Position numbers and translations under genes: made by a program. Positions 2,178-31,800 of a DNA stretch of 32,000 nt are shown here, piece by piece (the stretch's first letter is position 1; each line of letters begins with the position of its first letter). Below the pieces are notes generated by a model, which ran no database searches, was not told the origin of the DNA, and saw only the letters and a list, made by a program, of their open reading frames with translations. The DNA comes from Geotalea daltonii FRC-32 (GTDB lineage: Bacteria > Desulfobacterota > Desulfuromonadia > Geobacterales > Geobacteraceae): NCBI RefSeq assembly GCF_000022265.1, contig NC_011979.1:4140001-4172000 (forward strand). The letters are read 5' to 3'.

Positions 2178-2312
2178 CACCACGAAGGCACGAAGGGCAA
2201 GAAGAAATCATCTCAGGATAAAAACAAATGTCAAAACGGTTTTGCCTTTGATCCTGATTGTCCTGAATTGTGTCTTTCGTCTTTCCTTTGTGCTCTTCGT
2301 GTCTTCGTGGTG
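2178..2312. repeat. Palindromic intergenic element with CACGAAG-repeat arms, copy 1 (MITE/REP-like, no coding capacity)
   Basis: The left arm is caccacgaaggcacgaagggcaagaag. The right arm ends ...ctcttcgtgtcttcgtggtg, which is its imperfect reverse complement. It fills the flxB-flxA spacer and belongs to the same family as the elements at 4885, 5188 and 5491. Confidence 0.75.
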
Positions 2313-3392: not shown

Positions 3393-4340
3393 TTATTTGA
3401 TGAAACTCTGGTCGTCATTATCTTTATACTCTGCCAGCGGCCCCTTCTCCACTGGAGTGAGCCCAGCCTCGAAGTCATAGAGTGCCTTCAGCTCCTTGGC
3501 CATTTTCCGGTTAAGGAGGTTCAAGGGGATATCCATGGGGCAGGCCCGTTCGCATTCGGCACAACCGGCGCAGCGTCCTGCCAGGTGCATGGCACGGACG
3601 ATGTGCCAGGCTGTGTTCCCTGCCGGACGAGGTGTTGTCTCCACTGCCTGTGGACGGTTACGGTCGCACATGCACTGCTCGCAGTAGCAGAAAGGGCAGA
3701 CCTGGCGGCAGGCCAGGCAGCGAATGCAGCGGGAAAAGTGCTCCTTCCAGAAGGCCCAGCGCTCCCCAGGGGTCATCGCCTCCAGCCGTGCCAGCTCTTC
3801 GCCCTCCAGCGGGGTCAGTTCCGGCAGGTCAGGGGTTGTTCCCACAATGAGATCAGCCCCTTCAGGTGTATGGACGGAGCACTCGCGGCACTTGCGCGAA
3901 ATGTTTCCGGCGGTAAGCGGCTCACTGTTCGCAGGTCCGTTCCCTTTTACCCCGGCGCAGGCGACGCCAATGATATAGAGATCCTCCCTTTTGAGCTGTG
4001 ATTCACCCAAGAGCCCTGCCAGGGCCCGCATGTCGCATCCCTTGGCGACGATGGCTATCTTGCCGGCTCGGCGGATCTCTTTCTTGGCCTTGGTCAGGTA
4101 GAGGGCCAGGTTGTTGACGCAAGCCGGCGAGAAGATGAGTTCACTGGCCTTAGCCGGATCGGTAATGATATGGGGGATTGCGGTGCCGGCCAGGCGACCG
4201 GCCTTATAGCCGATGACGGCTGTGACGCTGCCGCCGGCAAGCAGTTTGGCCGCTTCCTTCCCGATGATTTCGCTGGTGGCGGCGTACCCGGTGGTATCGA
4301 TGGAGGGGGTTACTGCGATTTTTTCTGCCGTATTGTTCAT
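3393..4340 (-). CDS. flxC: Iron-sulfur protein with two 4Fe-4S motifs (FlxC-like)
   Basis: 315-aa ORF with CIRCLACRQVCPFCYC and CAGCAECERACP motifs. GAAGG lies 6 nt before ATG 4340. It is positioned between the mvhD-like and flxB-like genes. Confidence 0.85.
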   Translation of the reverse strand: MNNTAEKIAVTPSIDTTGYAATSEIIGKEAAKLLAGGSVTAVIGYKAGRLAGTAIPHIITDPAKASELIFSPACVNNLALYLTKAKKEIRRAGKIAIVAKGCDMRALAGLLGESQLKREDLYIIGVACAGVKGNGPANSEPLTAGNISRKCRECSVHTPEGADLIVGTTPDLPELTPLEGEELARLEAMTPGERWAFWKEHFSRCIRCLACRQVCPFCYCEQCMCDRNRPQAVETTPRPAGNTAWHIVRAMHLAGRCAGCAECERACPMDIPLNLLNRKMAKELKALYDFEAGLTPVEKGPLAEYKDNDDQSFIK

Positions 4341-4370
4341 GTATAACCTTCAGTACGAGTCTTTCCAGCT

Positions 4371-4871
4371 TTAGATGCTACCATAGGCCTCTTGCAGCTC
4401 CGGTGTGTCCAGTGCCCCTGACCAGTGTTCCTCTGTCTCCAGTTCCTTGAATTCGGTCATCGGCCCCAGCACTCTGATTCGCTCGGTCAGTTCCGTTACC
4501 ACCTCCACCCATTTCCCCCCCTCGGCAGCCGATACCCAGGAAAACTGGAGACGATTGAGATCGACACCGACAAACTCCAGCAGTTGACGAAAGGCGGCAA
4601 AGCGGCGGCGGGCATGAAAATTCCCCGCCATGTAATGGCAGTCGCCAGGATGGCAGCCGGAGACCAGCACCCCATCAGCACCGCGCTGGAAGGCACGAAG
4701 GATAAAAACCGGATCGATGCGCCCCGTGCAGGGGAATTTCAGCACCCGGACGTTGGCCGGATACTGCATGCGGCTTGTCCCCGCCAGGTCCGCCCCGGCG
4801 TAGGTGCACCAGGTGCAGACGAAGGCGACGATTTTTGGTTCGAGCTCATGATGTTGTTTTTCTGGATGCAT
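4371..4871 (-). CDS. flxD: Methyl-viologen-reducing hydrogenase delta subunit (MvhD) family protein (FlxD-like)
   Basis: 166-aa ORF with the MvhD Cys pattern (VCTWCTY, FPCTGR, VSGCHPGDCHY), immediately downstream of hdrA in the operon. Its first ~32 codons are part of the 303-bp tandem repeat. Confidence 0.9.
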   Translation of the reverse strand: MHPEKQHHELEPKIVAFVCTWCTYAGADLAGTSRMQYPANVRVLKFPCTGRIDPVFILRAFQRGADGVLVSGCHPGDCHYMAGNFHARRRFAAFRQLLEFVGVDLNRLQFSWVSAAEGGKWVEVVTELTERIRVLGPMTEFKELETEEHWSGALDTPELQEAYGSI

Positions 4872-4884
4872 GATTAAAACCTTT

Positions 4885-5011
4885 CACCACGAAGACACGA
4901 AGGACACGAAGAAATCAAAAACTTTTTAGGTGTAAAGCCAAGCCATAGGATCTATCCGGCTTTTTGTTCCGTCTTTCGCCTTCCTTCGTGCTCTTCGTGC
5001 CCTTCGTGGTG
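4885..5011. repeat. Palindromic CACGAAG-arm element, copy 2
   Basis: The arms are caccacgaagacacgaaggacacgaag ... cttcgtgctcttcgtgcccttcgtggtg. They are about 28 nt long, nearly complementary, and each is built from about three 8-9-nt CACGAAG units. Confidence 0.8.
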
Positions 5012-5036
5012 GATTTGTTATCTTACAACGCCTCTA

Positions 5037-5174
5037 TCATGGCAATGATCTGTTCATCGGTATAGCCGTCCAATTCCATGTCCCCGCCAGGTCCGCCCCG
5101 GCGTAGGTGCACCAGGTGCAGACAAAGGCGACGATTTTTGGTTCGAGCTCGTGATGTTGTTTTTCTGGATGCAT
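5037..5174 (-). pseudogene. Chimeric 45-codon ORF: mvhD codons 1-32 fused out of frame to a duplicated hdrA 3' end
   Basis: My hand translation of the minus strand gives MHPEKQHHELEPKIVAFVCTWCTYAGADLAGTWNWTAIPMNRSLP*. ATG is at 5174-5172 and TGA at 5039-5037. It is below the ORF-track length cutoff. It is a product of the tandem duplication. Confidence 0.55.
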
Positions 5175-5187
5175 GATTAAAACCTTT

Positions 5188-5313
5188 CACCACGAAGACA
5201 CGAAGGACACGAAGAAATCAAAAACTTTTTAGGTGTAAAGCCAAGCCATAGGATCTATCCGGCTTTTTGTTCCGTCTTTCGCCTTCCTTCGTGCTCTTCG
5301 TGCCTTCGTGGTG
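5188..5313. repeat. Palindromic CACGAAG-arm element, copy 3
   Basis: Near-identical to copy 2 and located within the second 303-bp unit. Confidence 0.8.
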
Positions 5314-5339
5314 GATTTGTTTTTCCTACAACGCCTCTA

Positions 5340-5477
5340 TCATGGCAATGATCTGTTCATCGGTATAGCCGTCCAATTCCATGTCCCCGCCAGGTCCGCC
5401 CCGGCGTAGGTGCACCAGGTGCAGACAAAGGCGACGATTTTTGGTTCGAGCTCGTGATGTTGTTTTTCTGGATGCAT
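5340..5477 (-). pseudogene. Chimeric 45-codon ORF (second copy): mvhD 5' fragment fused to a duplicated hdrA 3' end
   Basis: Same predicted peptide as 5037-5174. ATG is at 5477-5475 and TGA at 5342-5340. It lies directly downstream of the real hdrA stop and element copy 4. Confidence 0.55.
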
Positions 5478-5490
5478 GATTAAAACCTTT

Positions 5491-5601
5491 CACCACGAAG
5501 ACACGAAGGACACGAAGAAATCAAAAACTTTTAGCTCAGGATCTATCCGGCTTTTTGTTCCGTCTTTCGCCTTCCTTCGTGCTCTTCGTGCCTTCGTGGT
5601 G
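5491..5601. repeat. Palindromic CACGAAG-arm element, copy 4 (central deletion)
   Basis: The arms match copies 2 and 3. The central loop is 16 bp shorter (aaaaacttttagctcaggatc versus aaaaactttttaggtgtaaagccaagccataggatc). Confidence 0.8.
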
Positions 5602-5613
5602 GATTTGTTTTTC

Positions 5614-7611
5614 CTACAACGCCTCTATCATGGCAATGATCTGTTCATCGGTATAGCCGTCCAATTCCACACTCTTGGACGGACAGGTGGCCTGGCAGGT
5701 GCCGCAGCCGCCGCAGACGCCGGGATTAACATAGGCGACGACCCTTATCAGGTTCCCCTGGCGGTCCCTGATTTCCTTCTCTTCGATGGCGCCATAGGGG
5801 CAGACTTTCTTACAGTAAAAACAGCCGACACAATTTTTCTCGTTGACCCGGGCCACGATCGGCTCCCGCTCCAGCTGATCCTTGGCGAAAAGGGTCATCA
5901 CCTTGGCCGCTGCTGCCGAAGCCTGACTCACCGTATCGGGTATATCCTTCGGCCCCTGGCAGGCTCCGGCCAGATAGATGCCGGCCGTGGCGCACTCCAC
6001 CGGTCTGAGTTTCGCGTGGGCTTCGGAGTAGAAATTGTATTTGTCGTAGGAAATACCAAGCTTCTGGGCCAGGCTGTCAGCGCCGGGCTGGGCCTGGACT
6101 GCCGTCGCCAATACCACCAGGTCGGCCTCGATTTCCACCTGTACCCCGACCAGGGTATCGCTCCCCATAACCACCACCTTGTCCCCCTTCTGGTAGAGCC
6201 GGGAAACCATGCCGCGTATATAGACCGCCTCCTCTTCCTCCACCGCCCGCCGCCAAAACTCATCATAGCTCTTGCCGGGGGTGCGGGCATCCATATAGAA
6301 GACGTAAGCCTGGCCGTCGTGAACCTTGTGGTGGTAAAGCATGGTATGCTTGGCAGTGTACATGCAGCAGATCTTGGAGCAGTAGGAAATGCCCTTTTCC
6401 CTGGCCCTGCTGCCAACGCACTGGATGAAAACCACCTGCTTAGGTTCCTTGCCGTCTGAAGGACGGAGGATTTTTCCGCCCGTAGGGCCGGATGCACTGG
6501 CGAGGCGTTCGAAAGTCAAGCCGTCGATGACATCAGGGATGGTGCCGTAACCGAATTCGCCATAACCTTCGATGGGGCTTACTTCCGGCTTCCGATCAAT
6601 GGAGTAGAGGTCGAACCCGGTGGCAACAACGATGGCGCCGACCGGCTCCATTACAAGCTGGTCCTGCTGTTCGAAATCTATGGCCTGGGGTCCGCATACC
6701 TTGGCACAGAGGCCGCATTTACCGGCTCTGAACTTGAGGCAGTTTTCCCGGTCGATTACCGGCGTATTGGGTACCGCCTGGGGAAAGGGGACATAAATGG
6801 CAGAGCGCAGGCCCAGATCCTGGTCGAATTTGTTGGGGATTTTCTTCTGCGGGCATTTGGCCATGCAGATACCGCAGCCGGTGCACGTATCCTCATCAAC
6901 AGAGCGGGCCTTTTTGCGGATGGTGACGGAGAAGTTGCCGATATAGCCATCGATGCTTTCGATCTCCGACCAGGTGTAGAGCTTTATGTTGGGATGATTG
7001 GCGGCATCGACCATCTTCGGCGTCATGATGCATTGGGAACAGTCAAGGGTGGGAAAGGTCTCGGAAAGCTGGGCCATATGGCCACCGATTGAAGGCTCGC
7101 GCTCGACGAGCACCACCTGGTGTCCGGCGTCGGCGATGTCCAGGGCAGCCTGGATGCCGGCAATACCGCCGCCGATGACCAGCGAACGCTTGGTGACCGG
7201 GACGGTGATCGGTTCCAATGATTTTCCCCGCTTCACCCGCTCCACCATCAGCCGGACCATATCGCTCGCCTTGGCCGTCGCTTCTTCCCGGTCCTCATGA
7301 ACCCATGAGCAGTGCTCGCGGATGTTGGCCATGTCGCACATGAACGGGTTGAGGCCAGCTGCCTGGGCCGCCTTGCGGAAGGTCTTCTCATGCATGCGCG
7401 GACTGCAAGCCGCGACGACGATACCGGTGAGTTTGTGCTCGGCCACGGCCTTTTTCAGCAAGTTCTGCCCAGGATCGGAGCACATGTACTTATATTCGGT
7501 GGCGTAGGCAACGCCGGGCAGCCTGCCTGCAGAAGCTGCAACCCGCTCCACGTCTACAGTTCGGGAGATGTTCTCTCCACAGTGACAAATGAATACGCCG
7601 ATTCTTGACAT
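5614..7611 (-). CDS. hdrA: Heterodisulfide reductase subunit A (HdrA), FAD- and FeS-containing
   Basis: 665 aa. It has the N-terminal CHCGENI motif, the dinucleotide fold VIGGGIAGIQAALDIA, and four ferredoxin-type motifs (CTGCGICMAKCP, CGLCAKVCGP, CVGCFYCKKVCP, CGGCGTCQATCP). GAGGA lies 8 nt before ATG 7611. Confidence 0.95.
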   Translation of the reverse strand: MSRIGVFICHCGENISRTVDVERVAASAGRLPGVAYATEYKYMCSDPGQNLLKKAVAEHKLTGIVVAACSPRMHEKTFRKAAQAAGLNPFMCDMANIREHCSWVHEDREEATAKASDMVRLMVERVKRGKSLEPITVPVTKRSLVIGGGIAGIQAALDIADAGHQVVLVEREPSIGGHMAQLSETFPTLDCSQCIMTPKMVDAANHPNIKLYTWSEIESIDGYIGNFSVTIRKKARSVDEDTCTGCGICMAKCPQKKIPNKFDQDLGLRSAIYVPFPQAVPNTPVIDRENCLKFRAGKCGLCAKVCGPQAIDFEQQDQLVMEPVGAIVVATGFDLYSIDRKPEVSPIEGYGEFGYGTIPDVIDGLTFERLASASGPTGGKILRPSDGKEPKQVVFIQCVGSRAREKGISYCSKICCMYTAKHTMLYHHKVHDGQAYVFYMDARTPGKSYDEFWRRAVEEEEAVYIRGMVSRLYQKGDKVVVMGSDTLVGVQVEIEADLVVLATAVQAQPGADSLAQKLGISYDKYNFYSEAHAKLRPVECATAGIYLAGACQGPKDIPDTVSQASAAAAKVMTLFAKDQLEREPIVARVNEKNCVGCFYCKKVCPYGAIEEKEIRDRQGNLIRVVAYVNPGVCGGCGTCQATCPSKSVELDGYTDEQIIAMIEAL

Positions 7612-13212: not shown

Positions 13213-16122
13213 CTATAAAATTATTGCGTTGCCGACTCTGCTGTTATTGCTCTCGGCATCCACCGGGGGATTCCACTCAGGGATTCTATTGTCATAGTCA
13301 GCTATCGCACCAACATAATAGGTTCCGGTCATATTTGGTGGCAGATAATTTGATCCGGTAATAGTCACTATATCACCACCCCGTATCGCACCATTGTAAT
13401 AGGCCATGGCAACCCACGTGTCAGCCCCATTTGTTATCACTTCGTCCTGAGAAAGGTAAATTCCTGCATAATTGACGGATGCATTACCGTTACCCAAATT
13501 CTGGACCTTCAACGAGCATGTTAACATGCCGTTTGCTACGCTGCCGGACACACTGTCAGCTACTACCACCAAATCATTAGTGATCGTCACTTGGTTGCCG
13601 ACTCTGCTGTTATTGCTCTCGGCATCCACCGGGGGATTCCACTCAGGGATTCTATTGTCATAGTCAGCTATCGCACCAACATAATAGGTTCCGGTCATAT
13701 TTGGTGGCAGATAATTTGATCCGGTAATAGTCACTATATCACCACCCCGTATCGCACCATTGTAATAGGCCATGGCAACCCACGTGTCAGCCCCATTTGT
13801 TATCACTTCGTCCTGAGAAAGGTAAATTCCTGCATAATTGACGGATGCATTACCGTTACCCAAATTCTGGACCTTCAACGAGCATGTTAACATGCCGTTT
13901 GCTACGCTGCCGGACACACTGTCAGCTACTACCACCAAATCATTAGTGATCGTCACTTGGTTGCCGACTCTGCTGTTATTGCTCTCGGCATCCACCGGGG
14001 GATTCCACTCAGGGATTCTATTGTCATAGTCAGCTATCGCACCAACATAATAGGTTCCGGTCATATTTGGTGGCAGATAATTTGATCCGGTAATAGTCAC
14101 TATATCACCACCCCGTATCGCACCATTGTAATAGGCCATGGCAACCCACGTGTCAGCCCCATTTGTTATCACTTCGTCCTGAGAAAGGTAAATTCCTGCA
14201 TAATTGACGGATGCATTACCGTTACCCAAATTCTGGACCTTCAACGAGCATGTTAACATGCCGTTTGCTACGCTGCCGGACACACTGCCAGCTACTACCA
14301 CCAAATCATTAGTGATCGTCACTTGGTTGCCGGCTCTGCTGTTATTGTTCTCGGCCGACTCAGGGACTATATTGTCATTGTCAACTATGGCACCAACATA
14401 ATAGGTCCCTGTCATATTTATCGGAATGTATGACCATGAGGTTAGAGTGACTGAGGAGCCGCCAGGAATACCACTAGGATAGTAATATGCAGAGTTAAGC
14501 GTGTCCTCTTTTGTTATGAGTTGATCGGTGGAGAGGTAAATGCCGATAGAATTAGCACCTGCCGTTTTGATCCCCTGATTTTTGATTGTTACCGAGTACG
14601 AAAGCTTCCCTCCGCTGGCCGTGGCGGTAACACCCGTCACCACCAAATCAGGTTCGATAGAAGAAATCCTGATGACATTCCCTGTCGTGCAATTGTTGTT
14701 TTCATCAGTCTCGGGGACAAGGTTAGTATAGTCGGCACAGGCTTTGATGTAATATTCGCCAGTTTGGATTGACGGGATAGTGACCGTGGTACTGGTCGAA
14801 TCTGACATACCTGGCCCTAGTGAGGGGACGGTCCTCTCACCTAGTGGATAATCTACGCCATCTCTAGTGAGATAGAAACCGACCTTTGAGCTATCTGCTG
14901 CACCTGCGCCCTGATTCTTTACCTCGTATGATATGTCTATTGTGCTTTCAATAGTACCTGTTGCAGGCCCCGTCACCCTGGTTATAGCCAGATCAGCGTA
15001 AGACTCGTATCCAAGCATCACCGAATGTAGCACCGGTGTGCTTAGCCCGTCCGAAGAAAGCTTTACCTGTATCTCAGCCGCCGGGGTGAAAGAAACGTTG
15101 AGAGGAACAGAAGTCGTTACGCTGCCGTCCGTTTCGGTTGTGGTTTCCGAGCCGGATGTAGAGACGTCGTACCAAGTGTCGGCTGACCCGTCAGGGCCTT
15201 TATAGGTTGCACCATCGAGCGACAAAACATCCGGCGCAGTTCGTATCTGGAACTGGATCTTCTGGTTTGCGCCAGGGGTGGCGTAATTCCAGGATAGGTG
15301 TATGGCATTGGCGTTGTTAATTCCCATTACGGGAGCATCGACGCGAAGCCCGATATTTCCAGGAGCCTGACCGCCAAGGAGGTTGAGTGGTGGATCGATT
15401 TCAACGTCTTTTATAACTTGGTCTGTCACACCGTCAATGACAGTCATATACTGATTGGACTTACTGGTCAGATAAACTTTATTATCTACCGCATTGAATG
15501 AGGCAGTCGTCGCGCCTGCCGCTACTGGCACGGTAATCAGCGCGGAGTCGGAGACTCCATCAAGAATGGTGACGGTCTGGTCAGCAGTGTTTGCAATATA
15601 AGCCTTATTGCTTTTGGGATTGTAAACGGCGGCATAGGCTCCGTTGCCAACTGTGAGGGTGTGGGTGATGGTATCGGTAGTGACATCTATCACCAGAACC
15701 TTGTTGTCGTTGTATTGCCCAACATACAGCTTGTTGCTCTGGGAATTGTAAACAACACCAGCTGCCCTGCCAGGAAGTGATATGTTCGGCATCAATGTGT
15801 TGGATCTTGCGTCAATAACCGCTATCGAAGTACGATCAACCCCAGTGGTGTAAATCTTATTATTCAACGTCACGCAGGTTATGGTCGCAGAGGTCACGAA
15901 ATCTTTTGTGACACCTATCATGACATCTCCAGGCGACGTAGTAGTATCGATATTTAGCCTGGTGGCCTTTTCCCAATCTTCTTTGTTGTCCCATTTCACC
16001 GGGGTTATTGTTGACGCCTGCGCAGTTACTGAGATGCCAGCAATTCCCACCACTAATCCCATGAACATAACTGCCGTTATTGTTTGCCTCATCACTCTGT
16101 CCAATTTCTTTAAGCAGTCCAT
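13213..16122 (-). CDS. Secreted repeat protein: signal peptide, YVTN/YncE-type beta-propeller repeats, then five CARDB-like domains
   Basis: I prefer ATG 16122, which has GGAGGG 4 nt upstream, giving MDCLKKLDRVMRQTITAVMFMGLVVGIAGISVTAQA as a signal-like N-terminus. The track start is 16158. YVTN-like repeats are present (NKLYVGQYNDNKVLVIDVTT, NKAYIANTADQTVTILDG, NKVYLTSKSNQYMTVIDG). CARDB-like modules are present (DLxV..V......L...V.N.G......V.YLS.D....D ... GTYYV.A..D.....PE..E.NN). Confidence 0.85.
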   Translation of the reverse strand: MDCLKKLDRVMRQTITAVMFMGLVVGIAGISVTAQASTITPVKWDNKEDWEKATRLNIDTTTSPGDVMIGVTKDFVTSATITCVTLNNKIYTTGVDRTSIAVIDARSNTLMPNISLPGRAAGVVYNSQSNKLYVGQYNDNKVLVIDVTTDTITHTLTVGNGAYAAVYNPKSNKAYIANTADQTVTILDGVSDSALITVPVAAGATTASFNAVDNKVYLTSKSNQYMTVIDGVTDQVIKDVEIDPPLNLLGGQAPGNIGLRVDAPVMGINNANAIHLSWNYATPGANQKIQFQIRTAPDVLSLDGATYKGPDGSADTWYDVSTSGSETTTETDGSVTTSVPLNVSFTPAAEIQVKLSSDGLSTPVLHSVMLGYESYADLAITRVTGPATGTIESTIDISYEVKNQGAGAADSSKVGFYLTRDGVDYPLGERTVPSLGPGMSDSTSTTVTIPSIQTGEYYIKACADYTNLVPETDENNNCTTGNVIRISSIEPDLVVTGVTATASGGKLSYSVTIKNQGIKTAGANSIGIYLSTDQLITKEDTLNSAYYYPSGIPGGSSVTLTSWSYIPINMTGTYYVGAIVDNDNIVPESAENNNSRAGNQVTITNDLVVVAGSVSGSVANGMLTCSLKVQNLGNGNASVNYAGIYLSQDEVITNGADTWVAMAYYNGAIRGGDIVTITGSNYLPPNMTGTYYVGAIADYDNRIPEWNPPVDAESNNSRVGNQVTITNDLVVVADSVSGSVANGMLTCSLKVQNLGNGNASVNYAGIYLSQDEVITNGADTWVAMAYYNGAIRGGDIVTITGSNYLPPNMTGTYYVGAIADYDNRIPEWNPPVDAESNNSRVGNQVTITNDLVVVADSVSGSVANGMLTCSLKVQNLGNGNASVNYAGIYLSQDEVITNGADTWVAMAYYNGAIRGGDIVTITGSNYLPPNMTGTYYVGAIADYDNRIPEWNPPVDAESNNSRVGNAIIL
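13228..14325. repeat. 3 x 366-bp near-perfect tandem repeat (122-aa CARDB-like module) at the 3' end of the gene
   Basis: The unit starts gttgccgactctgctg at 13228, 13594 and 13960. Copies 1 and 2 look identical by eye. Copy 3 differs by one substitution near 14288 (Asp to Gly). A diverged fourth unit begins at 14326. Confidence 0.95.
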
Positions 16123-16522
16123 TTTCCCTCCAATCAATATATGCACAATTCCAATCAACCCTGCATCAAAGGTCCTTTACCCTCCTTTCCTGCTCGGTTA
16201 AAAAAGCAAATGCAATGCTAGCTGCTTTTAATCATATATTACATATTAATGCAAGCTGTTTATCTACTTTCCCCTTTTCCTCCGGCCATTTTACTGGATA
16301 GACGTGAGATGAAAATTTAAGAGGTACCTCAATCAAACAAGTTATATCCCCCACAGGATAGGAGTCCACCTGCTCAAGATGAGGCCAAGATCATCCGTAA
16401 CAAATCTTGCCTTGACCTCATTCAGAGTAATTTAGTAATACTGCTGTGGTTACTCCTGAGCATCTATATCAAATTCCGTTTTCTCCATCTCTACGTATTG
16501 CAATAGTAAGAGGATTGCTATC

Positions 16523-18433
16523 ATGAAACATCTCATTCTCGGCACTGCAGGACACATCGACCATGGCAAGACCTCGCTGGTCAAGGCTTTGACCGGCATC
16601 GACACTGACCGGCTCAAGGAAGAAAAGGCGCGTGGCATTACCATCGAGTTGGGCTTTGCCCATCTGGAACTGCCGGAAGGGATACAGTTCGGCATCGTCG
16701 ACGTTCCCGGCCATGAAAAGTTCGTCAGGGCCATGGTGGCCGGAGTCGGCGGCATGGACCTGGTGATGCTGGTCATTGCCGCCGATGAGGGGATTATGCC
16801 CCAGACCAGGGAACACCTGGAAATTTGCCAGCTCCTGGGGGTGAAGAAGGGGCTGGTGGCCCTGACCAAGACTGATATGGTGGACAGCGAATGGCTTGGT
16901 CTGGTGACGGAAGAGGTGCGGGAATACCTGTCCGGCAGCTTCCTGGAAGATGCGCCCATAGTCCCGGTTTCCTCGCGCACCGGTGCAGGACTTGATGAGC
17001 TGAAGGGGGAGCTGGCACGGCTGGCACTGGAGGTGGAGGAGAAGCGGCACGATGGCCCCTTTCGCCTGCCGGTAGACCGGGTCTTCACCGTGACCGGCTT
17101 TGGAACGGTTGTCACCGGAACGCTCCTTTCCGGTGAGATCCAGGTTGGGGATGAGGTTGAATTGCTGCCGGCCAGTCGCGAATGCAGAGTCCGCGGCATC
17201 CAGGCCCATGGCGCAAAAACCGACCGTGGTCTGGCCGGGCAAAGGCTAGCCGTAAACTTGCAGGGGGTTGATCACGACCAGGTTTTGCGGGGCGATGTGG
17301 TGGTGCCCAAGAACCTGTACCGGCCGACCCGGGTCGTGGACGTACGCCTCAACTACCTGAGTTCGGCACCGAGGGAGCTGAAGCATCGTGCCACCCTGCG
17401 TCTCCATTCGGCCACCTATGAGGTGCCGGCACAGGTCATTCTTCTGGATCGGGACACGCTCAAGCCGGGAGATACCGCCTGTGCACAGCTGCGTCTTGCC
17501 AATCCGGTACTGCTTCTTCCCGGTGACCCATTCGTCCTGCGAACCTATTCACCCCAGGCTACCCTTGGGGGTGGCAGCATCCTCGATCCGGATCCACCTC
17601 GCCGTCGCCGGCGTTCCGAAGAGGCCATTGCACTCCTTGAGGCCATTGAAGCGGGCAACGAGGCGGATAAGGTCAGGATGATGGTCGCCGCCAGTCTCCT
17701 GTCAGGCCTCCCTCTCAATGAAATCATCAACCGTACCGGCATGTCGGTAAAAAGAATCGATGCAGCTCTGGCAATCCTTCTTACCTCTGGAGACGTGCTG
17801 CAGGTGGTACGCGAACCCAGGATTTTTCTCGGCAAAGCTGCCTTCGAAGGGCTGAAGGCGAAGTTGATGGAGGAACTGCAGACCTATCTCCGCGACAATC
17901 CCATGAAAGACGGCATCAACAAGGAAGAACTCAAGTCTCGCATACCCAGGCGCAGTGACCCCCGTTTTTTCGGCCCGATCCTGGCTGCCCTTGAGAAGGA
18001 AGGAAAGGCGGTCTCGGAGCGGGATATTATCAGGCTGCCGGGACGCAAGGGGGAGGCAAGCATCGATCAGGCCGGCATCCAGGAAAAGATTGCGGCTGCC
18101 CTGCAGAAGGGTGCAATGGAGCCTCCCACCATAAAAGAATTATGCAATGACTGCAAATGCTCAGAGAAACAGGTACTTGAGCTTCTAAATCTCCTGGTGC
18201 GAGATCACAAAGCGGTGAAGATCAAAGGTGATGTTTTTTACGCACCTGATCCCATTGTGACAATACGGGAAAAGCTGACTGCATATCTCAAGGAAAAGGG
18301 GGAAATCGCCCCGCCTGAGTTCAGGGAACTTACCGGCCTTTCTCGGAAATTCATGATCCCTCTTCTGGAGTATTTTGATCAGGAAAAGCTGACCATCCGT
18401 GTTGGAGATAAGCGTGTCCTGCGCAAAGGTTAG
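16523..18433 (+). CDS. selB: Selenocysteine-specific translation elongation factor SelB
   Basis: 636 aa. GTPase motifs [14 protein letters not shown] and TKTD sit in an EF-Tu-like N-terminal half. The long C-terminal extension is typical of the SECIS-binding winged-helix domains. AAGAGGA lies upstream of the ATG. Confidence 0.93.
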
Positions 18434-25837: not shown

Positions 25838-28800
25838 TCAATATTTACCCCCTGGTGTGTAACTACCCATACTGTTGCTGCAGGGGCTGCCTCCGCCTGA
25901 CGTCGTGCACGTCGCACTTCCCGATGTCAATTCGTTAACTGCCGTCAATGGCCGGTGATTTGTCAGGGAAAGCGGCGTTACCGTGTTTCTTATGAATGCA
26001 TACGGTCTGCTGGTCTCGGTTGTACCTCGGGGCCACTTGGAATCAGTTCCCGTGCCGGCCAGCCTATTGAAGCCGTGAACGTTCTCGCCACGTGTCGGAC
26101 GACTGGCGGTAATGCTGCTGGAGTGGCAATAGTTGCACCCATAACGCAGATAGGTGACCATGCTGCTGTGCGTACTTGATGCAAGTGCAGAACCGGTGCC
26201 GTGATGTTGAGAGGTGCTCGTGTTATATCCGGCATGGCAGATTTTACAGAGTGTCGTTTCGTTGGTGCTGGCCGCAGGGGTCCCTGTGACTGTTGCCGTG
26301 CCTCGAAGGGTGGCTTGTGCGCCGTGGGCCGTTACGGTACTGGTCTGAACCCCGGATGCACCAACAGGTGCATGGCAATCCCAGCAGGAAATCAGTGGCC
26401 CCCAGCTCGTTATGTCAACGCTACTACCCCTGGTCGCACCGTTCCATGGATTGACCATTCTGGTGGTTTTGGCATACCAGTTATTCTGTTTGCCCATAAC
26501 AGGGTGATAGGATGAGTTGCTTGTGGCAAACGCCGCTGCAATATTGGTGACACCGCCGGTTACCCCGTTAGCGGTTATCCCGGCCCCTGTATATCCTGCT
26601 TCCGCAATGGTAGTGGCAAAGGGCTTTTCTGCAGTCCCACCGGGTACCTGTGCTGTGGTACTTACGGCACCGTTCCCATCATGGCACTTGAGGCAGAAGT
26701 TGATCTGAATAGCGGCCACATCAGCCTCGACGTTCGGGCTACCCAGATCCCGACTGAATCGGGGCGGTTTTGCATCAACAGTGGTGCTCGTATAGGAACC
26801 GGGAGTCCCGCTGAAGGTTACACCTTTGATGGTAGAACCGGTATCCGGATCGCGAAGCTCTATCAGTCCGTTTTGGTGATATGAAGTAGGTTTCCCTGTG
26901 GACATCTCCCCTTCCATGTGGCAGACGATACAGTCGTACTGGGTGACTGCACCACCTGCGGAGCGCTTGTGAGACCAGGTGTTGTTGAATTCAAGGGAAA
27001 CTGCCCTTCGTGAACCATTATTGGCCAGAGGACCCTGTTTTATATCCACAGTTTTACTATGACAAGAGACACAGCTCGGTCCTTCGATGCTGCCGTTCAG
27101 GTGCAGTTGGAAATTCAATATGGTCCCGGTCGCAGAAACGTTGTTGTGACAGCCGCTGCAGGAGGTTGTTGGCACCTGACCACGATGGGCCGACGAAGAT
27201 ATGCCGTAAAGCGGAGGATTGCCGTGGCAGACACCGCAATTGCTTCCCGATCTGGCTGCGGTCCAGGTTACGGTTGCCGTACGCGCTGCTCCGCCACGGC
27301 CGTCCTGGTGGCACTGGTTGGTGGAGCAGGTGCCCCCCGATGAGTAGGGATAGCCCTTGCTGTCTGTTGTATTGGTAGAACCAAAGGTATAGTTGACAAC
27401 AGCAAGGATATCGGCCTTGCCGTCCTCCTCATTATGCAGGTTTGCAGGATGGCAGTTTTTGCAGGCAAAGCCGTAGGCAGTGGCAGTTGTTTTATTGCTG
27501 CCGGTCAGGTTATTAAAGACGGTCCCCTGGTTGTAATGCAGAGCATGTCCTGCCGTTGTACTCACAGAAAGCTGGCCGTTATTGCTGCCGCCATGGCAAC
27601 CATCGCAAATCTTGGGCTCTCCTTTATAGGCAAAGCCGTTATAGGTTGTATCGGAGCTATGGAGATGACACTGGGTGCATACCGTGCCTGAGTTATGGCT
27701 GTCTGAGCTGGTGGCAGTATAGTGTACCATCTTGTTGGGATCTGCATTTTTATAGGTATGGCAAACGTTACAGATACCATTGAAAGGAGCCGCCGTCTTA
27801 GCCCAGTTTGAGGCAGCAGCCTTTGCTACAAAGGAAACATTATTAGTGGTAAAGCTGGACGGCACTCCAGTTGTTCCATCAGAGGTCATTGACGGCTTCA
27901 GGTGTACCATGGCAATGGGTCCTGCATTGGTGCTGGTCCGGTCTCCGTGTGAGTCATGGCAATCCCAGCAGAACTGGCCGCCATTGAGTGATGTGGAATG
28001 CTTGCTGCCGAAGTGATATTTATCCACCTTGCGCTGAGTCGCTGTCTTGGCGGTATATCCGGGCCCTGGCGTTACCCCGGTTGCGCCGACGGAGGCATGA
28101 CAGACAAGACAGACACCATTCCTGCCCCAAGTTGCATGATCGAAATTGCGCAAACGCATCGGATTATTGGTGTCCCCATGGCTGACACTGCTGTATTCAT
28201 GGCAGTACAGACATGGATCGCCTGCCCCACCAGCCGTGGCTGCAGCCGAGGAGAATCCGGCAAAGGCCGCTCCGGTAACGTCATAGGAGCCGGATTGCCT
28301 GCCGTGGCCCGACCAGCTCCATTCAGCCCGGGCAATCTTTGCCATGGTGCTGTTTTTGAAAGCGTAATTGACGGTATCGGCAGTGGCAAAGTGACAATCA
28401 CCGCACTTGTTGGTGCCGCCCCAGGTGAATACCGTTGAAGCATTGCCGCCATGGCAATTGACATTACTACAGCTGGTTTTGGTCGTCGGAGGGTTTGCAG
28501 ACGTGGGGGTAAAGGTATTTGGCAAGCCGATAAATGTTTTCGTGCCGTTGGCAACGACATTGTAATTCTTGTTTACATGGTTTCTCACGCTGGAAATGGT
28601 ATTGCCGCCACTGCCAACCGTGCCGTTGTGGCACCAGTCGCAGGTAAAGCCCCAGAAGACCGCATGCTTGGGATGGCTGTTGGCCTTGCCCTTGTAACCG
28701 TTCTGGTAATCAGGCCCTGTCGGATAGGCCGTATGACAGCTGCCGCAATGAACGTTCGCCTGTACCGTATCCCATTTGATCCAGGGAGTTGAGTAATCGG

Positions 28801-31800
28801 TGAAAGAAAAGGCCCGACTGTGGCAGTAACCGTTTTTACACTGATTATTTCCGGCATCCCAACGGAAAGCTGCAGAGCCGACCGTACTGCTGGCGGAAAT
28901 ATTGCGAAAACCATTGGGATGCTTGGCACGACTGCCGGAAAGAAGCGCAGTATTGCTGGTTGTCGTAGACGCATGACAGGCGGCACAGGTTACCAGGGTG
29001 TTGTTTGTGGAGGTATTGTTGCTGCCGATGGTCCCACCATTGCCATAGGTGTTGGCATGCTTGTTGTGGGGTTTTGACCAGGTGGTGTGCTGAGAGTTCG
29101 GATCATCGGCTGCCTTGTTATGGCAATCCCCACAGGCGGCGGCTCTGCCGGTCCAGCGCAGCACACTGGTCATTGGGGACTGGATCAGATCCAGAGTATT
29201 CGCATAGTTACGTTTGCCCAGGCCGCCGCGTCCGTCCGAGTGGCAGTAGGTGTCGCAGGAAGTGCCGGTTGAATACCCATATCCGCGTCCGTCATAGATC
29301 AAGCCTGTGCCGCGGTAGACCACCTCCGGCCTGCCTGCCCCTGAAGGAATATTGTTGAACGGTGGGCGCATGATGACTTCAGCAACAGAACCATTTGTCA
29401 CGCCGGCAGGAGGCCCATTGAGATGGCTTTCGGTCGGACTGCCGGGATGGCAGACGCCACACATGAAGACGTTGGTGCTGCTGGAAAGATTGACATTGGT
29501 CCATCCTTGTTCGGTTGTACTGGACGGGCGGGTAGAGCGGTTGTAATGCTTACGGTGGGCGGGTGAAAGTGTGGCTGTCGATGTAGTGGTGTTATTGGCC
29601 TCATGGCAGTTGCCGCAGGTGTTAATCGTAGAGGTGTCCCAGTCCCGACTTTGGGTGGTGGAATTGTTGCCGTGGCAGTAAGTATTGGAGCAGACGTGGG
29701 TAGAAGCAAAGCTGCCCGAGAAATTGGCCATCTTGATGAAGTTAATGTCAATCGCACGGTTGATGTGCTTGACGTCGGTGCCGTTGAAGACAGACCGGCC
29801 ATTGGCAGCGACTGTATTCACGTGGCACCAGTTGCAGGTAACCGGCTTGTGTGGCAAGGGCCCGGCACTTATGTGGTTCAGGTGCCGCCCCGAGCTCATC
29901 TGTCTTTGAACGCCAGCCAGGCCGTTGTGACAGTAATTGCACTCGATGGTCCCCTGCTGACCGGCAGCGATGTTGTTCCAGGTCGTAGGAGGCGCCTTGT
30001 AGACACCTGCCCCGTTGGAGTGACAGTAGATCTGGGTACAGCCGTTGGCGGCATAGGCCAACCCGCCGGTCGATTTAGGCCCCCATGCCACGTTGTTCAC
30101 CCTGTTTGCGTGAAGCGAAAAAGCGGTGACATTATCAAAGGCATTTACCGTCGAGGCATGGCACTCGTTGCACTTGAAGTTGAAACCGCTAAAACTGCTG
30201 CTGGTATTGTTCACATGTGCAGTATGACCTTTGGTGGCAATCGGATCGGCTGAGGCTGCATTGTAACCATGACAACCGGCGCACCCCCCCGACAGCGAGC
30301 CTCCCCAGGTAACCGGTTTATTGAAATGGCAGTAGACATTGGTGCACTGTTGGGCACTACTGTCCCAGCGAATTGCCCCGGCGATGCTGTTGCCGGTAAC
30401 GTTGCGGAAGCCATTGGGATGCCTGTCGCGTCTGTTGGCAATAAGAGTAGTATTGTCGGCTGCGGTCGCTGCATGGCAGGCGTTACAGGTGGCATTGGCA
30501 CTGCGGGAGCCGGAAAGGTGCTTAGAGTGGGAACCGGACCAGGTGGGGTTGGCATCACCATACTGGTTGTGACAGTTGCCGCAGACGACCCCGGTTGAGG
30601 TTGTCCACTCCAGTCTTGGCGCCGATGTGCTGTTGCGTTTCCCCGGGTTGCCACGCCCATCGGAGTGGCAGTAGGTATCACAGGTGGTCCCGGTGGAATA
30701 ACCATAGCCGCGGCCATCGTAATTTACGCCGGTGCCACGCGTCACTGTCTCCGGTCTCGTTGCCCCCACAGGAGGTGTAAACGGCAGGCGCAAGGCGACC
30801 TCGGCCACCGAGCCATTGGTAACGCCTGCCGGCGGCCCGCTCAGATGGCTGGTGGTCGGGCTGCCAGGGTGACATACCCCGCACATGAAGACGTTGGTTG
30901 AAACTGAGCGATTTACATTGGCCCAGCCATCCTCCGTGGTATTTGCCGGCCGGCTGCTCGTATTGTAATGCTTGCGGTGGGCCGCTGAAAGGGTGGCTGA
31001 GGTCGTGGTCGTGTTGTTGGCCTCATGGCAGTTACCGCAGGTATTGAGGGTTACCGTATCCCAGTCGCGGGTGGAGGTGGTGGCATTGTTGGTATGGCAG
31101 TAAGTGTTGGAACAGACATGAGTGGAAGTACTGTAGCTACCGGAGAAGTTTGCCATTTTTATGAACGACACATCGATGGTGCGGTTGATGTGCTTGACAT
31201 CTGTACCGTTGTATACCGATTGACCGTTAGATGCCACCGTATTCGAGTGGCACCAATTACATGAGACGGGTCGATGCGGCAGGGGGCCGCCATTGATATG
31301 GTTCAGGTGCCGCCCGGAGCTCATCTGATTCTGGATTCCTGCCAAACCGTTATGGCAGTAATTGCACTCGATTACCCCCTGCTGGTTGTCACCGATGGTC
31401 TTCCATGTCTGGGGAGGGGCTTTATACCTTCCCTTGCCGTTGGAATGGCAGTACACCGTACATGTCTTGGCAGGGTCGTAGGAAAGGACACTGGTCCCCC
31501 CGGTTGGCACATACGCGGCATCGGGGCCCCAGTTCACATCGGCTGCGCCATTGACATGAAGGGAAGTAGAAATCAGCCCGGTGTCGGAGGAATTCACCGT
31601 CGAATTATGACATTCCTGACAACGGAAATTGAACCCGCCAAAACGGACACTGGTGTTGTCGACGTGGGCTTTGTGACCATTGCTGGTAATGGTTGAAACC
31701 GCATCCGCATTGTTACCATGGCAATTTACACAGCCGGTTGAGTAACTGCTGTCACCCCAAGTCGGGTTCTGTCGAGGTGGTTTTCCTTTTCCGTCGCTGT

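What the first reader, a model, noticed from the sequence alone, without database searches (positions are those of the whole stretch)
4777..5669. 303-bp tandem triplication of the hdrA/mvhD gene junction inside an operon, creating two chimeric 45-codon ORFs
The segment from mvhD codon ~32 to the last ~18 codons of hdrA, including the intergenic palindromic element, is present three times head to tail (starts 4777, 5080, 5383). On the mRNA, the real hdrA stop is therefore followed by two copies of an ORF with a perfect mvhD start region and first 32 codons. These include the first Cys pair, CTWC. Each then runs out of frame into the duplicated hdrA tail (MHPEKQHHELEPKIVAFVCTWCTYAGADLAGT-WNWTAIPMNRSLP*). 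Only after them does the full mvhD follow. The copies are not identical. Copy 1 differs from copies 2 and 3 at two positions that are synonymous in mvhD (TTC/TTT and CAT/CAC). It also differs in the spacer and stop region (TAA versus TAG). Copy 3 alone has a 16-bp deletion in the element loop. This mosaic argues against a trivial assembly stutter. It suggests a real, somewhat aged duplication or ongoing gene conversion. Possible consequences are decoy translation starts, altered HdrA:MvhD stoichiometry, or extra mRNA structure.
Basis: seen in the sequence. Interest (0 to 1): 0.75.

Follow-up and report, generated by a model that had tools for sequence, protein, structure and literature searches.

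The report
Tandem triplication of hdrA–mvhD junction
A 303-base piece of DNA spanning the end of one redox-enzyme gene, a hairpin-forming repeat element and the start of the next gene is genuinely present three times in a row in this Geobacter-family bacterium. It is best read as an ordinary, fairly recent local duplication with no demonstrated function.

Summary
Window 4776-5669 holds three head-to-tail copies (303, 303 and 288 nt, 96% matches). Each unit contains the last 18 codons of hdrA, a 150-nt palindromic spacer element and the first 32 codons of mvhD. This yields two identical 45-codon chimeric ORFs.

It is not an assembly stutter. Short-read contigs from three SRA runs are 100% identical to the window and stop exactly 30 nt inside the repeat at both edges. 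That is the k=31 graph signature of a real duplication joint. A 99.7%-identical metagenome strain also breaks inside the repeat.

The core hairpin belongs to a dispersed family of palindromes built from inverted octamer arrays, common in Geobacteraceae. It resembles elements described in G. metallireducens in 2009. The hdrA-mvhD spacer is a hotspot for them.

The closest relative found, Geotalea toluenoxydans, has its own 169-nt tandem array at the same junction. Its endpoints differ and it has no decoy ORFs.

Copy differences polarised with that outgroup fit this order: duplication, about 2% divergence, a second very recent duplication, then a loop deletion.

Nothing indicates selection on the decoy peptides. 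Verdict: a real, near-neutral local amplification around a REP-like palindrome, of modest interest.

The parts
5614..7611 (-). hdrA (665 aa). Its last 56 nt, 5669-5614 including the TAG stop, form the first part of repeat copy A.
   Evidence: ORF list. Pfam FAD/NAD plus 4Fe-4S domains. NCBIfam HdrA2 profile positions 1-639, E=7e-237, below the equivalog cut-off.
5382..5669 (-). Repeat copy A (hdrA-proximal, 288 nt): real hdrA tail, spacer palindrome with a shortened loop, and the first 96 nt of a truncated mvhD'.
5079..5381 (-). Repeat copy B (middle, 303 nt): pseudo hdrA tail (5381-5326), palindrome with a full loop, and truncated mvhD' (5174-5079).
4776..5078 (-). Repeat copy C (mvhD-proximal, 303 nt): pseudo hdrA tail (5078-5023, TAA stop), palindrome with an extra G in the left arm, and the genuine first 96 nt of mvhD.
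5340..5477 (-). Chimeric 45-codon ORF 1: mvhD codons 1-32, then 13 out-of-frame codons read from the duplicated hdrA tail.
   Evidence: Pfam FlpD matches residues 14-34 only.
5037..5174 (-). Chimeric 45-codon ORF 2, identical in sequence to ORF 1.
5372..5391 (-). Novel joint 1 on the gene strand, ...GGCGGGGACA|TGGAATTGG...: mvhD codon 32 joined to hdrA codon 648, with no microhomology.
   Evidence: Read directly from the sequence. Branching at both flanks in independent k=31 assemblies.
5069..5088 (-). Novel joint 2, identical to joint 1.
5491..5601 (.). Palindromic element of copy A: arms of three tandem octamers, CACGAAGR on one side and YCTTCGTG on the other.
   Evidence: Inverted repeat I5. 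RNA fold -57.9 kcal/mol.
5188..5313 (.). Palindromic element of copy B.
   Evidence: Inverted repeat I3. RNA fold -63 kcal/mol, z=-6.7. DNA fold -33.9 kcal/mol, z=-5.95.
4885..5011 (.). Palindromic element of copy C.
4371..4871 (-). Full-length mvhD/flxD (166 aa). Its first 96 nt lie inside copy C.
   Evidence: Pfam FlpD E=3e-53. NCBIfam HdrA2 profile positions 642-774 and VhuD.
2181..2309 (.). A further single copy of the same palindrome family, two genes downstream in the operon. It shows the element is dispersed and is not itself duplicated there.

Best explanation
This is a genuine, evolutionarily recent, two-step local tandem amplification of the hdrA-mvhD gene junction, centred on a long REP-like palindrome.

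Step 1 (inferred): a homology-independent join linked mvhD codon 32 to hdrA codon 648 and duplicated a 303-nt segment containing the hairpin. Stalling or template switching at the roughly 30-bp-arm palindrome is the likely trigger.

Step 2 (inferred from the pattern of differences): the two copies diverged by about 2%.

Step 3: unequal homologous recombination or slippage between the 303-nt repeats duplicated the hdrA-proximal copy very recently.

Step 4: the loop of the first copy suffered a 15-nt deletion with substitution, as palindrome centres often do.

The two 45-codon ORFs and the two extra hdrA tails are by-products. The mRNA now carries 742 nt, three strong hairpins and two extra mvhD ribosome-binding sites and start codons between hdrA and mvhD. 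There is no evidence that this is selected. The most likely status is a near-neutral or mildly expression-modifying structural variant, in effect a young minisatellite.
For: Shown:
- The three-copy array and its identical joints are in the sequence.
- Three Logan (k=31) contigs from SRR29904085, SRR9436587 and SRR9436588 are 100% identical to the window over 6.2-7.6 kb and all end at 5640, exactly 30 nt inside the hdrA-side edge.
- Two Logan contigs start at 4805, exactly 30 nt inside the mvhD-side edge.
- The same k-1 behaviour appears at the unrelated CARDB repeat, where L082 starts at 13257.
- A MEGAHIT contig from a 99.67%-identical metagenome strain starts 39 nt inside the repeat.
- Differences between copies are structured and can be polarised with G. 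toluenoxydans as outgroup.
- G. toluenoxydans has a separate 169-nt, 2.4-copy array at the same junction with different endpoints. Its middle copy has the left arm of copy 3 and the loop and right arm of copy 1, exactly the product expected from unequal crossover.
- The palindrome is a dispersed family: 121 octamer-array arms and 41 paired elements in 841 kb of relatives, against 0 in shuffles.
- Its hairpin is kept by compensatory changes in 8 of 23 pairs, and it is very stable as RNA or DNA.
- Among 79 relatives, none has a second mvhD N-terminus, and the spacer ranges from -1 to 261 nt (486 nt in L001), against 742 nt here.
Against: - The copy number of exactly three cannot be verified from contig ends. 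Copies A and B differ only in the loop, so a two-copy genome with population heterogeneity in the loop is not excluded.
- No microhomology is seen at the joint, so the mechanism of the first step is inferred, not shown.
- Two tandem arrays at the same junction in two sister species, while none was found elsewhere in about 800 kb of related DNA holding tens of such elements, is more coincidence than a purely neutral model predicts. It could indicate selection for several hairpins, or an older shared duplication.
- No expression data are available.
Confidence: 0.72

Rival explanations
1. Functional intercistronic regulatory array. Multiplied hairpins, with or without decoy mini-cistrons, are maintained because they tune expression of mvhD and the downstream redox genes relative to hdrCBA. 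They could act through mRNA stabilisation or processing, ribosome sequestration at decoy starts, or protein binding (IHF/HU) to the octamer arrays. RecA-dependent copy-number changes might make the effect variable.
For: - Two related species each carry a multi-hairpin array at this same junction.
- The junction is normally tight: the genes abut in 9 relatives, and hdrA and mvhD are fused in Methanosarcina HdrA2, whose profile is matched end to end by the two proteins.
- The decoy starts keep the complete mvhD ribosome-binding site (AAAGG) and ATG.
- Hairpins at this spacer are conserved in architecture across many lineages, with compensatory change.
Against: - The G. toluenoxydans array has no decoy ORFs.
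- The two decoy ORFs are identical, so they carry no signal of purifying selection. The synonymous differences are derived in the real gene.
- No promoter-like or terminator-like sites were found.
- No Rfam family matches.
- Hairpin stability shows no sense-strand bias across 70 spacers (39 versus 31, p=0.48), so an RNA-level role is not indicated.
- Most relatives manage with one hairpin or none.
Confidence: 0.15
2. Partial assembly artefact. A real duplication of two copies was inflated to three because loop variants present in the sequenced population were laid out in tandem.
For: - Copies A and B are identical except for the loop complex.
- The independent contigs prove only that each edge branches, meaning at least two copies.
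- Exact look-ups of MvhD and the 45-aa ORF found no full-length contig through the array.
Against: - A de Bruijn or overlap assembler does not normally convert an allelic bubble into an extra tandem unit.
- The window carries three distinguishable haplotypes in a consistent order.
- The other long repeat in the window (CARDB domains) is resolved coherently.
Confidence: 0.1
3. Element-driven duplication. The octamer-array palindrome is a mobile element (MITE or REP mobilised by a transposase) and the repeat arose by repeated insertion next to itself.
For: - The family is dispersed and repeatedly occupies this spacer in different lineages, with different octamer subtypes.
- The 2009 G. metallireducens paper notes IS elements at fixed distances from similar paired sites (PMC2700814).
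Against: - The repeat unit extends 56 nt into hdrA and 96 nt into mvhD. Both joints are identical fusions of unique flanking coding sequence, which insertion of an element cannot create.
- No transposase gene lies in the operon region.
Confidence: 0.03

Closest known systems
Paired tandem octa- or heptanucleotide repeat sites of Geobacter metallireducens ('predicted global regulator binding sites', classes 1-3; class 2 consensus TCTCCGTS[Y] x3 on opposite strands), Aklujkar et al. 2009, PMC2700814
   Same: - Same architecture: three tandem ~8-mers on each strand forming a long imperfect palindrome with a variable AT-rich centre.
- Multicopy and intergenic, including between genes of one operon.
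- Relatives L019 and L025 carry exactly the CACGGAGA/TCTCCGTG type at this very junction.
   Different: - The window's octamer is CACGAAGR, not the published consensus.
- The paper does not describe tandem duplication of an element together with flanking coding sequence.
- The proposed IHF/HU binding was a hypothesis, never tested.
REP/BIME and ERIC-type extragenic palindromes of enterobacteria (comparison from general knowledge)
   Same: - Dispersed imperfect palindromes sitting between genes of operons.
- Able to form stable stem-loops.
- BIME clusters vary in unit number between strains, and REPs can lie at duplication joints.
   Different: - No sequence similarity.
- The arms here are internally repetitive octamer arrays.
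- The duplication joints lie outside the element, in unique coding DNA.
- No RAYT-type transposase was examined.
MIRU-VNTR loci of mycobacteria (comparison from general knowledge)
   Same: Tandem units located between genes of an operon, containing small ORFs, and behaving as minisatellites.
   Different: - MIRU units are 46-101 nt, dispersed at many loci, and their ORFs overlap the stop and start codons of the flanking genes.
- Here the unit is 303 nt of purely local DNA.
- Its ORFs are truncated copies of the downstream gene, separated by hairpin spacers.
Spontaneous tandem duplication followed by RecA-dependent expansion in bacteria (Roth/Andersson duplication-amplification framework; from general knowledge)
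   Same: A first join without homology is followed by expansion through unequal recombination between the new repeats. The joint sequence is diagnostic.
   Different: - Classical cases span kilobases to hundreds of kilobases, include whole genes, and are unstable without selection.
- This one is 303 nt and contains no whole gene.
- It has persisted long enough to accumulate about 2% divergence and to be shared by a 99.7%-identical strain.
Methanosarcina HdrA2 (natural HdrA-MvhD fusion; Yan et al. 2017, PMC5296606, listed; NCBIfam NF040770)
   Same: The window's HdrA and MvhD together match the fused profile end to end, positions 1-639 and 642-774. The duplicated junction is therefore the fusion point of a tightly cooperating pair.
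   Different: Here the two are separate genes, pushed 742 nt apart rather than fused. All scores are below the family cut-offs, so they are homologues and not equivalogs.

Membership tests
Tandem duplication / minisatellite locus | Head-to-tail copies of one unit with the same novel joint at each boundary | tested here: met
   Three copies with spacings of 303 and 288 nt. Both joints read GGGGACA|TGGAATTGG.
Tandem duplication / minisatellite locus | The joint is supported by sequence data independent of the assembly in hand | tested here: met
   Five Logan contigs from three runs stop exactly 30 nt inside the repeat, at 5640 and at 4805. A MEGAHIT contig from a second strain stops 39 nt inside.
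Tandem duplication / minisatellite locus | Copy number differs between strains | not testable with these tools
   No contig spans the array. The junction 22-mer has 0 hits in JGI metagenomes. No sister-strain genome is available.
REP/BIME-like dispersed extragenic palindromes | Many copies dispersed in intergenic DNA | tested here: met
   121 arm arrays and 41 paired elements in 841 kb of related loci plus the window, against 0 in shuffled sequence. There is an extra copy at window 2181-2309.
REP/BIME-like dispersed extragenic palindromes | Stable imperfect hairpin maintained in evolution | tested here: met
   RNA fold -63 kcal/mol, z=-6.7. DNA fold z=-5.95. 8 of 23 pairs show compensatory double changes across 15 homologous elements.
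REP/BIME-like dispersed extragenic palindromes | Associated RAYT/TnpA-REP transposase, or demonstrated IHF/gyrase binding | not tested
   No whole genome is available and no binding data exist.
G. metallireducens class 2 paired sites (Aklujkar 2009) | Three tandem repeats on each of two opposite strands at a variable distance | tested here: met
   CACGAAGR x3 and YCTTCGTG x3, with 51-66 nt between the arms. Description in PMC2700814.
G. metallireducens class 2 paired sites (Aklujkar 2009) | Repeat consensus TCTCCGTS[Y] | tested here: not met
   The window has TCTTCGTG / CCTTCGTG. The consensus type is present at the same junction in L019 and L025, and the elements align as homologues.
MIRU-like intercistronic repeats | Unit ORFs whose stop and start codons overlap those of the flanking genes; the unit is dispersed at many loci | tested here: not met
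   Each decoy ORF is separated from its neighbours by a hairpin spacer. The unit is local coding and spacer DNA found nowhere else in the window or in the 80 related loci.
Intrinsic terminator / known structured RNA | GC stem followed by a U-run, or a match to an Rfam family | tested here: not met
   0 terminator-like and 0 promoter-like sites in 4300-6000. No Rfam hit at gathering threshold. Only sub-threshold generic long-hairpin (plant miRNA precursor) matches appear.
HdrABC-MvhD type heterodisulfide-reductase-like module | HdrA (FAD plus FeS), HdrB (CCG domains), HdrC (2x[4Fe-4S]) and MvhD (FlpD domain) encoded together | tested here: met
   Pfam and NCBIfam hits for all four. All are below equivalog cut-offs, so the substrate is unknown.

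The most novel reading that the evidence does not exclude
In Geotalea, the hdrA-mvhD junction is a recurrently expanding, copy-number-variable intercistronic module. RecA-mediated gain and loss of hairpin units, here with decoy mvhD start cistrons, would act as a heritable but reversible dial on the ratio of the HdrCBA module to the MvhD/NAD(P)H-side module of an electron-bifurcating complex. The octamer-array palindromes would be the agents that both nucleate the duplications and exert the effect.
Probability: 0.1. Interest if true: 0.55.

Novelty: new member of a known kind. Interest (0 to 1): 0.3.

Why it matters
If it is only what it appears to be, it is a clean, datable example of how a long palindrome in an operon spacer seeds a small tandem duplication that then expands. 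The example includes an outgroup, a parallel event in a sister species and read-level confirmation. That is useful for annotation, because the two 45-aa ORFs and the extra hdrA tails should be flagged as remnants and not as genes. It is also a caution that short-read assemblies will break here.

It would matter more if copy number turned out to vary and to set the relative expression of the two halves of a flavin-based electron-bifurcating Hdr complex whose HdrA and MvhD parts are normally translationally coupled or even fused.

The wider unsolved item is the octamer-array palindrome family itself. It is abundant in Geobacteraceae and evolves with compensated arms. It has had no tested function since it was first catalogued in 2009.

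Tried and rejected
- Exact-sequence look-ups of MvhD (166 aa), the 45-aa chimeric ORF and the FAD/NAD subunit found nothing. This is expected, because short-read contigs break in the repeat and gene starts differ.
- The metagenome scan for the joint 22-mer gave 0 hits. A scan for a 21-mer of the hairpin loop gave one unrelated chance hit, L081.
- A search of about 5.8 billion proteins with MvhD found no full-length protein closer than 88% identity. The 91-93% partial hits are frameshifted C-termini, not N-terminal variants.
- Rfam gave no family at gathering threshold. At E<1 it returned only generic hairpin look-alikes (plant miRNA precursors), which I reject as meaningless.
- The promoter and terminator scan found nothing.
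- I tested for RNA-level selection by comparing sense and antisense fold energies and G-U counts over 70 spacers. There was no asymmetry (p=0.48), so I do not claim an mRNA-specific role.
- TRF over all 80 related loci found only L001 with a long-period array, so a general tendency of these elements to duplicate their flanks is not supported.
- I looked for microhomology at the joint and found none. GGAC occurs near both breakpoints but does not fit the joint.
- I considered that the L001 array derives from a window-like 303-nt unit by deletion of the mvhD'-hdrA' segment. This is formally possible, since deleting TCATG...GAACA reproduces its joint GGTTTTAA|GATC. However, the window copies are far more alike (98-100%) than the two species are (about 90% in the same 96 nt), so I treat the events as independent while noting the ambiguity.
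- Literature searches for the octamer strings and for the SRA/ENA accessions found nothing relevant.


Full report
**What is in the sequence**

Tandem Repeats Finder reports one array at window 4776-5669 with period 303, 3.0 copies, 96% matches and score 1632. The gap-free repeat finder places the copies at 4776, 5079 and 5382, with spacings of 303 and 288 nt.

All genes here are on the minus strand:
- an HdrC-like gene, 9166-8582
- hdrB, 8585-7695, with two CCG domains
- hdrA, 7611-5614
- mvhD, 4871-4371 (Pfam FlpD, E=3e-53)
- an FrhB-like FeS protein, 4340-3393
- an AsrA/HydB-like FeS protein, 3320-2316
- a HydG/AsrB-like FAD/NAD(P) protein, 2183-1320

From general knowledge, this gene set resembles the NAD(P)H-linked Flx-Hdr type of electron-bifurcating complex. 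That assignment is an inference.

Read on the gene strand, each repeat unit has three parts:
- the last 56 nt of hdrA (…VELDGYTDEQIIAMIEAL, then stop)
- a spacer of about 150 nt that is almost entirely one long imperfect palindrome
- the ribosome-binding site, the ATG and the first 32 codons of mvhD

Both joints are identical, GGGGACA|TGGAATTGG. Two identical 45-codon ORFs result, at 5477-5340 and 5174-5037. They carry the mvhD N-terminus, including CTWC, and then run out of frame through the duplicated hdrA tail.

The corrections are small. The unit starts at 4776. The loop change in the hdrA-proximal copy is a net 15-nt deletion plus substitution. The mvhD-proximal copy also has an extra G in one hairpin arm.

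**Is it real DNA or an assembly stutter?**

The window's own MvhD and the 45-aa ORF are not on record as exact proteins. HdrC, HdrB and the FrhB-like protein are.

They lead to short-read contigs from three SRA runs assembled by Logan with k=31 (SRR29904085, SRR9436587, SRR9436588). These contigs are 100% identical to the window over 4.2-7.6 kb.
- All three hdrA-side contigs end at window 5640, exactly 30 nt inside the repeat edge at 5669.
- Both mvhD-side contigs start at 4805, exactly 30 nt inside the other edge at 4776.

In a k=31 de Bruijn graph, a unitig stops k-1 bases into a sequence that has two different neighbours. The first 30-mer inside the repeat must therefore be preceded in the reads both by hdrA (…AGAGTG) and by something else. 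Likewise, the last 30-mer must be followed both by mvhD (AGCCGC…) and by something else. A single-nucleotide variant would instead have broken the contig 30 nt upstream as well, and it did not.

The same k-1 behaviour is seen where contig L082 starts, at 13257, 30 nt inside the window's other long repeat.

A MEGAHIT contig from an ENA metagenome (ERZ27250632) is 99.67% identical to the window and starts 39 nt inside the repeat. That fits a k=39 stage, which is my inference. It suggests the joint also exists in a slightly different strain.

The duplication joint is therefore real. What contig ends cannot prove is the exact number of copies.

**History of the copies**

I call the copies A (next to hdrA), B (middle) and C (next to the mvhD body).
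- B and C differ by four substitutions and two single-base indels: TAG/TAA, the spacer, the extra G in the arm, CAC/CAT and TTT/TTC.
- A and B are identical except for the loop complex.

I used the orthologous element of Geotalea toluenoxydans (L001 copy 3) as outgroup. CAT and TTC are derived in C, which is the real mvhD. TAG is derived in A and B.

The simplest order of events is:
1. one duplication
2. about 2% divergence
3. a second, very recent duplication of the hdrA-proximal unit
4. a loop deletion in A

The two coding differences arose in the functional gene, where only synonymous changes survive. They therefore give no evidence that the decoy ORFs are under selection. The decoys are identical to each other and carry no further signal.

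**What the palindrome is**

The spacer element has arms made of three tandem octamers, CACGAAGR on one side and YCTTCGTG on the other, around an AT-rich centre.
- It folds at -63 kcal/mol as RNA (z=-6.7).
- It folds at -33.9 kcal/mol as DNA (z=-5.95).
- A further single copy lies at 2181-2309, between two downstream genes.

I fetched 80 related loci, all Geobacteraceae. The best is G. toluenoxydans at 92% MvhD identity.

Across 79 relatives, the hdrA-mvhD spacer ranges from abutting genes (-1 to +1 nt, nine loci) to 261 nt, with 486 nt in L001. Here it is 742 nt.

Most of the occupied spacers that I could inspect hold a strong hairpin, and many have this same architecture with a lineage-specific octamer. 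Variants include CACAGAG, CACGGAG, CGCGGAG, CACTAAG, GCGGAT and GATCGG, with arms matching to within a few mismatches. Part of that output was cut off. Some spacers instead hold a different palindrome or, as in L065, a small ORF.

A pattern for three CRC-NN-AG octamers finds 121 arm arrays and 41 paired elements in 841 kb, against none in shuffled sequence.

Fifteen of these elements align as homologues. Of 23 consensus pairs, 8 show compensatory double changes.

Aklujkar et al. (2009, PMC2700814) catalogued the same kind of object in G. metallireducens. They described paired sites on opposite strands, each of three or four tandem octa- or heptanucleotides. Their class 2 consensus, TCTCCGTS, is the L019/L025 type. 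They guessed these bind IHF/HU-like global regulators, and nothing has been tested.

Rfam has no family for it. No promoter or terminator consensus is present. Sense and antisense folds are equally stable across 70 spacers (39 versus 31, p=0.48). I therefore cannot say whether it acts as RNA or as DNA.

**A parallel in the closest relative found**

G. toluenoxydans has a 169-nt, 2.4-copy array at the same junction (L001 5503-5904). Its unit runs from the last ~27 nt of hdrA to just before the mvhD ATG. It therefore multiplies the hairpin and the ribosome-binding site but creates no decoy ORF.

The three L001 elements are:
- copy 1: CACTAAG type on both arms, loop X
- copy 2: CACGAAG left arm, with loop X and a CTTAG right arm
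- copy 3: CACGAAG type on both arms, loop Y

Copy 3 is the orthologue of the window's element. Copy 2 is exactly the product expected from an unequal crossover between copies 1 and 3.

The endpoints differ from those in the window. The window's copies are also much more alike than the two species are. I therefore treat the two arrays as independent events, although descent from an older shared duplication cannot be excluded.

No other long-period array exists in the 80 loci, and no relative has a second mvhD N-terminus.

**How it most likely works**

- Shown: the structure, the reality of the joint, the order of events implied by the differences, and the dispersed and compensated nature of the palindrome.
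- Inferred: the first join was an illegitimate, homology-free event, since there is no microhomology at the joint. It was probably promoted by polymerase stalling or template switching at the palindrome. The second step was homologous unequal exchange between 303-nt repeats. The loop lesion in A resembles the centre-of-palindrome deletions known from hairpin processing.
- Consequences on the mRNA: three hairpins and two extra mvhD start sites lie between two genes that elsewhere overlap, or are even fused. The window's HdrA and MvhD match the Methanosarcina HdrA2 profile at positions 1-639 and 642-774. These features follow from the sequence, but their effect is unknown.

The sister array lacks the ORFs, and the ORFs show no selective signal. 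I therefore regard the 45-aa peptides as by-products. I put about 0.72 on a near-neutral structural variant and about 0.15 on a selected multi-hairpin regulatory array. I put about 0.10 on the third copy being an assembly inflation of a true two-copy locus. Element transposition is excluded by the joint structure.

**Novelty and score**

This is a new member of a known kind. It is a small tandem duplication that has become a young minisatellite, nucleated at a REP-like palindrome of a family already noted in Geobacter genomes.

It is well documented and slightly unusual in three ways. It sits at a normally tight gene junction, it copies a functional translation start twice, and it has a parallel in a sister species. 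A specialist would not be greatly surprised, and no open question becomes testable because of it.

Interest is 0.3. The more novel reading is a copy-number-variable dial on the stoichiometry of an electron-bifurcating complex. I give it about 0.1 probability.

Noticed in passing
window 13228-14355 (inside ORF 13213-16158, minus strand): A second long tandem array: period 366 nt (122 codons), 3.1 copies, 99% identical. It lies in frame inside a 981-aa protein with five CARDB domains. Logan contig L082 starts exactly 30 nt inside it, so short-read assemblies break here too.
   Followed up: partly
window 2181-2309: A single copy of the same octamer-array palindrome (CACGAAGA CACGAAGA GCACAAAG … CCTTCGTGCCTTCGTG) between the AsrA/HydB-like and HydG/AsrB-like genes of the same operon. 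G. toluenoxydans has its counterpart at L001 8546-8695.
   Followed up: partly
L034 743-993: In one relative, the left arm of the spacer palindrome has expanded to about ten tandem GGCCGGATCT/GGGCGGATCT units (spacer 249 nt). This shows that the octamer arrays themselves behave as microsatellites.
   Followed up: no
L007, L021, L027, L058, L068, L078 (hdrA-mvhD spacer): These relatives carry a different palindrome at the same spot: TGAACGAGCG … GGCGTAGCGCTGCTACGCC … CGCTCGTTCA. [quoted passage not shown] L078 additionally keeps an orphan CTTAGTG-type right arm.
   Followed up: no
L065 2982-3203 (similar spacers in L063, L069, L070, L074, L076): Some relatives have a small ORF with a lipoprotein-like signal (MLARLLMLAMLLTMFLYSGCSS…, about 64-73 aa) inserted between hdrA and mvhD instead of a palindrome.
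   Followed up: partly
window 25838-31948 (minus strand): A 2036-aa multihaem cytochrome with Geobacter CxxxxCH…CxxCH motifs, cytochrome c7 repeats and MtrC/MtrF-like domains. Elsewhere in the window are SelB (16523-18433), a chemotaxis receptor and an SPFH/GYF protein.
   Followed up: no
L001 5515-5657 versus 5850-6000: Within one genome and one locus, all three octamers of both arms differ in the same way (CACGAAG/CTTCGTG versus CACTAAG/CTTAGTG). That makes six parallel changes. It implies concerted evolution of the arms, or replacement by another family member, rather than independent point mutation.
   Followed up: partly
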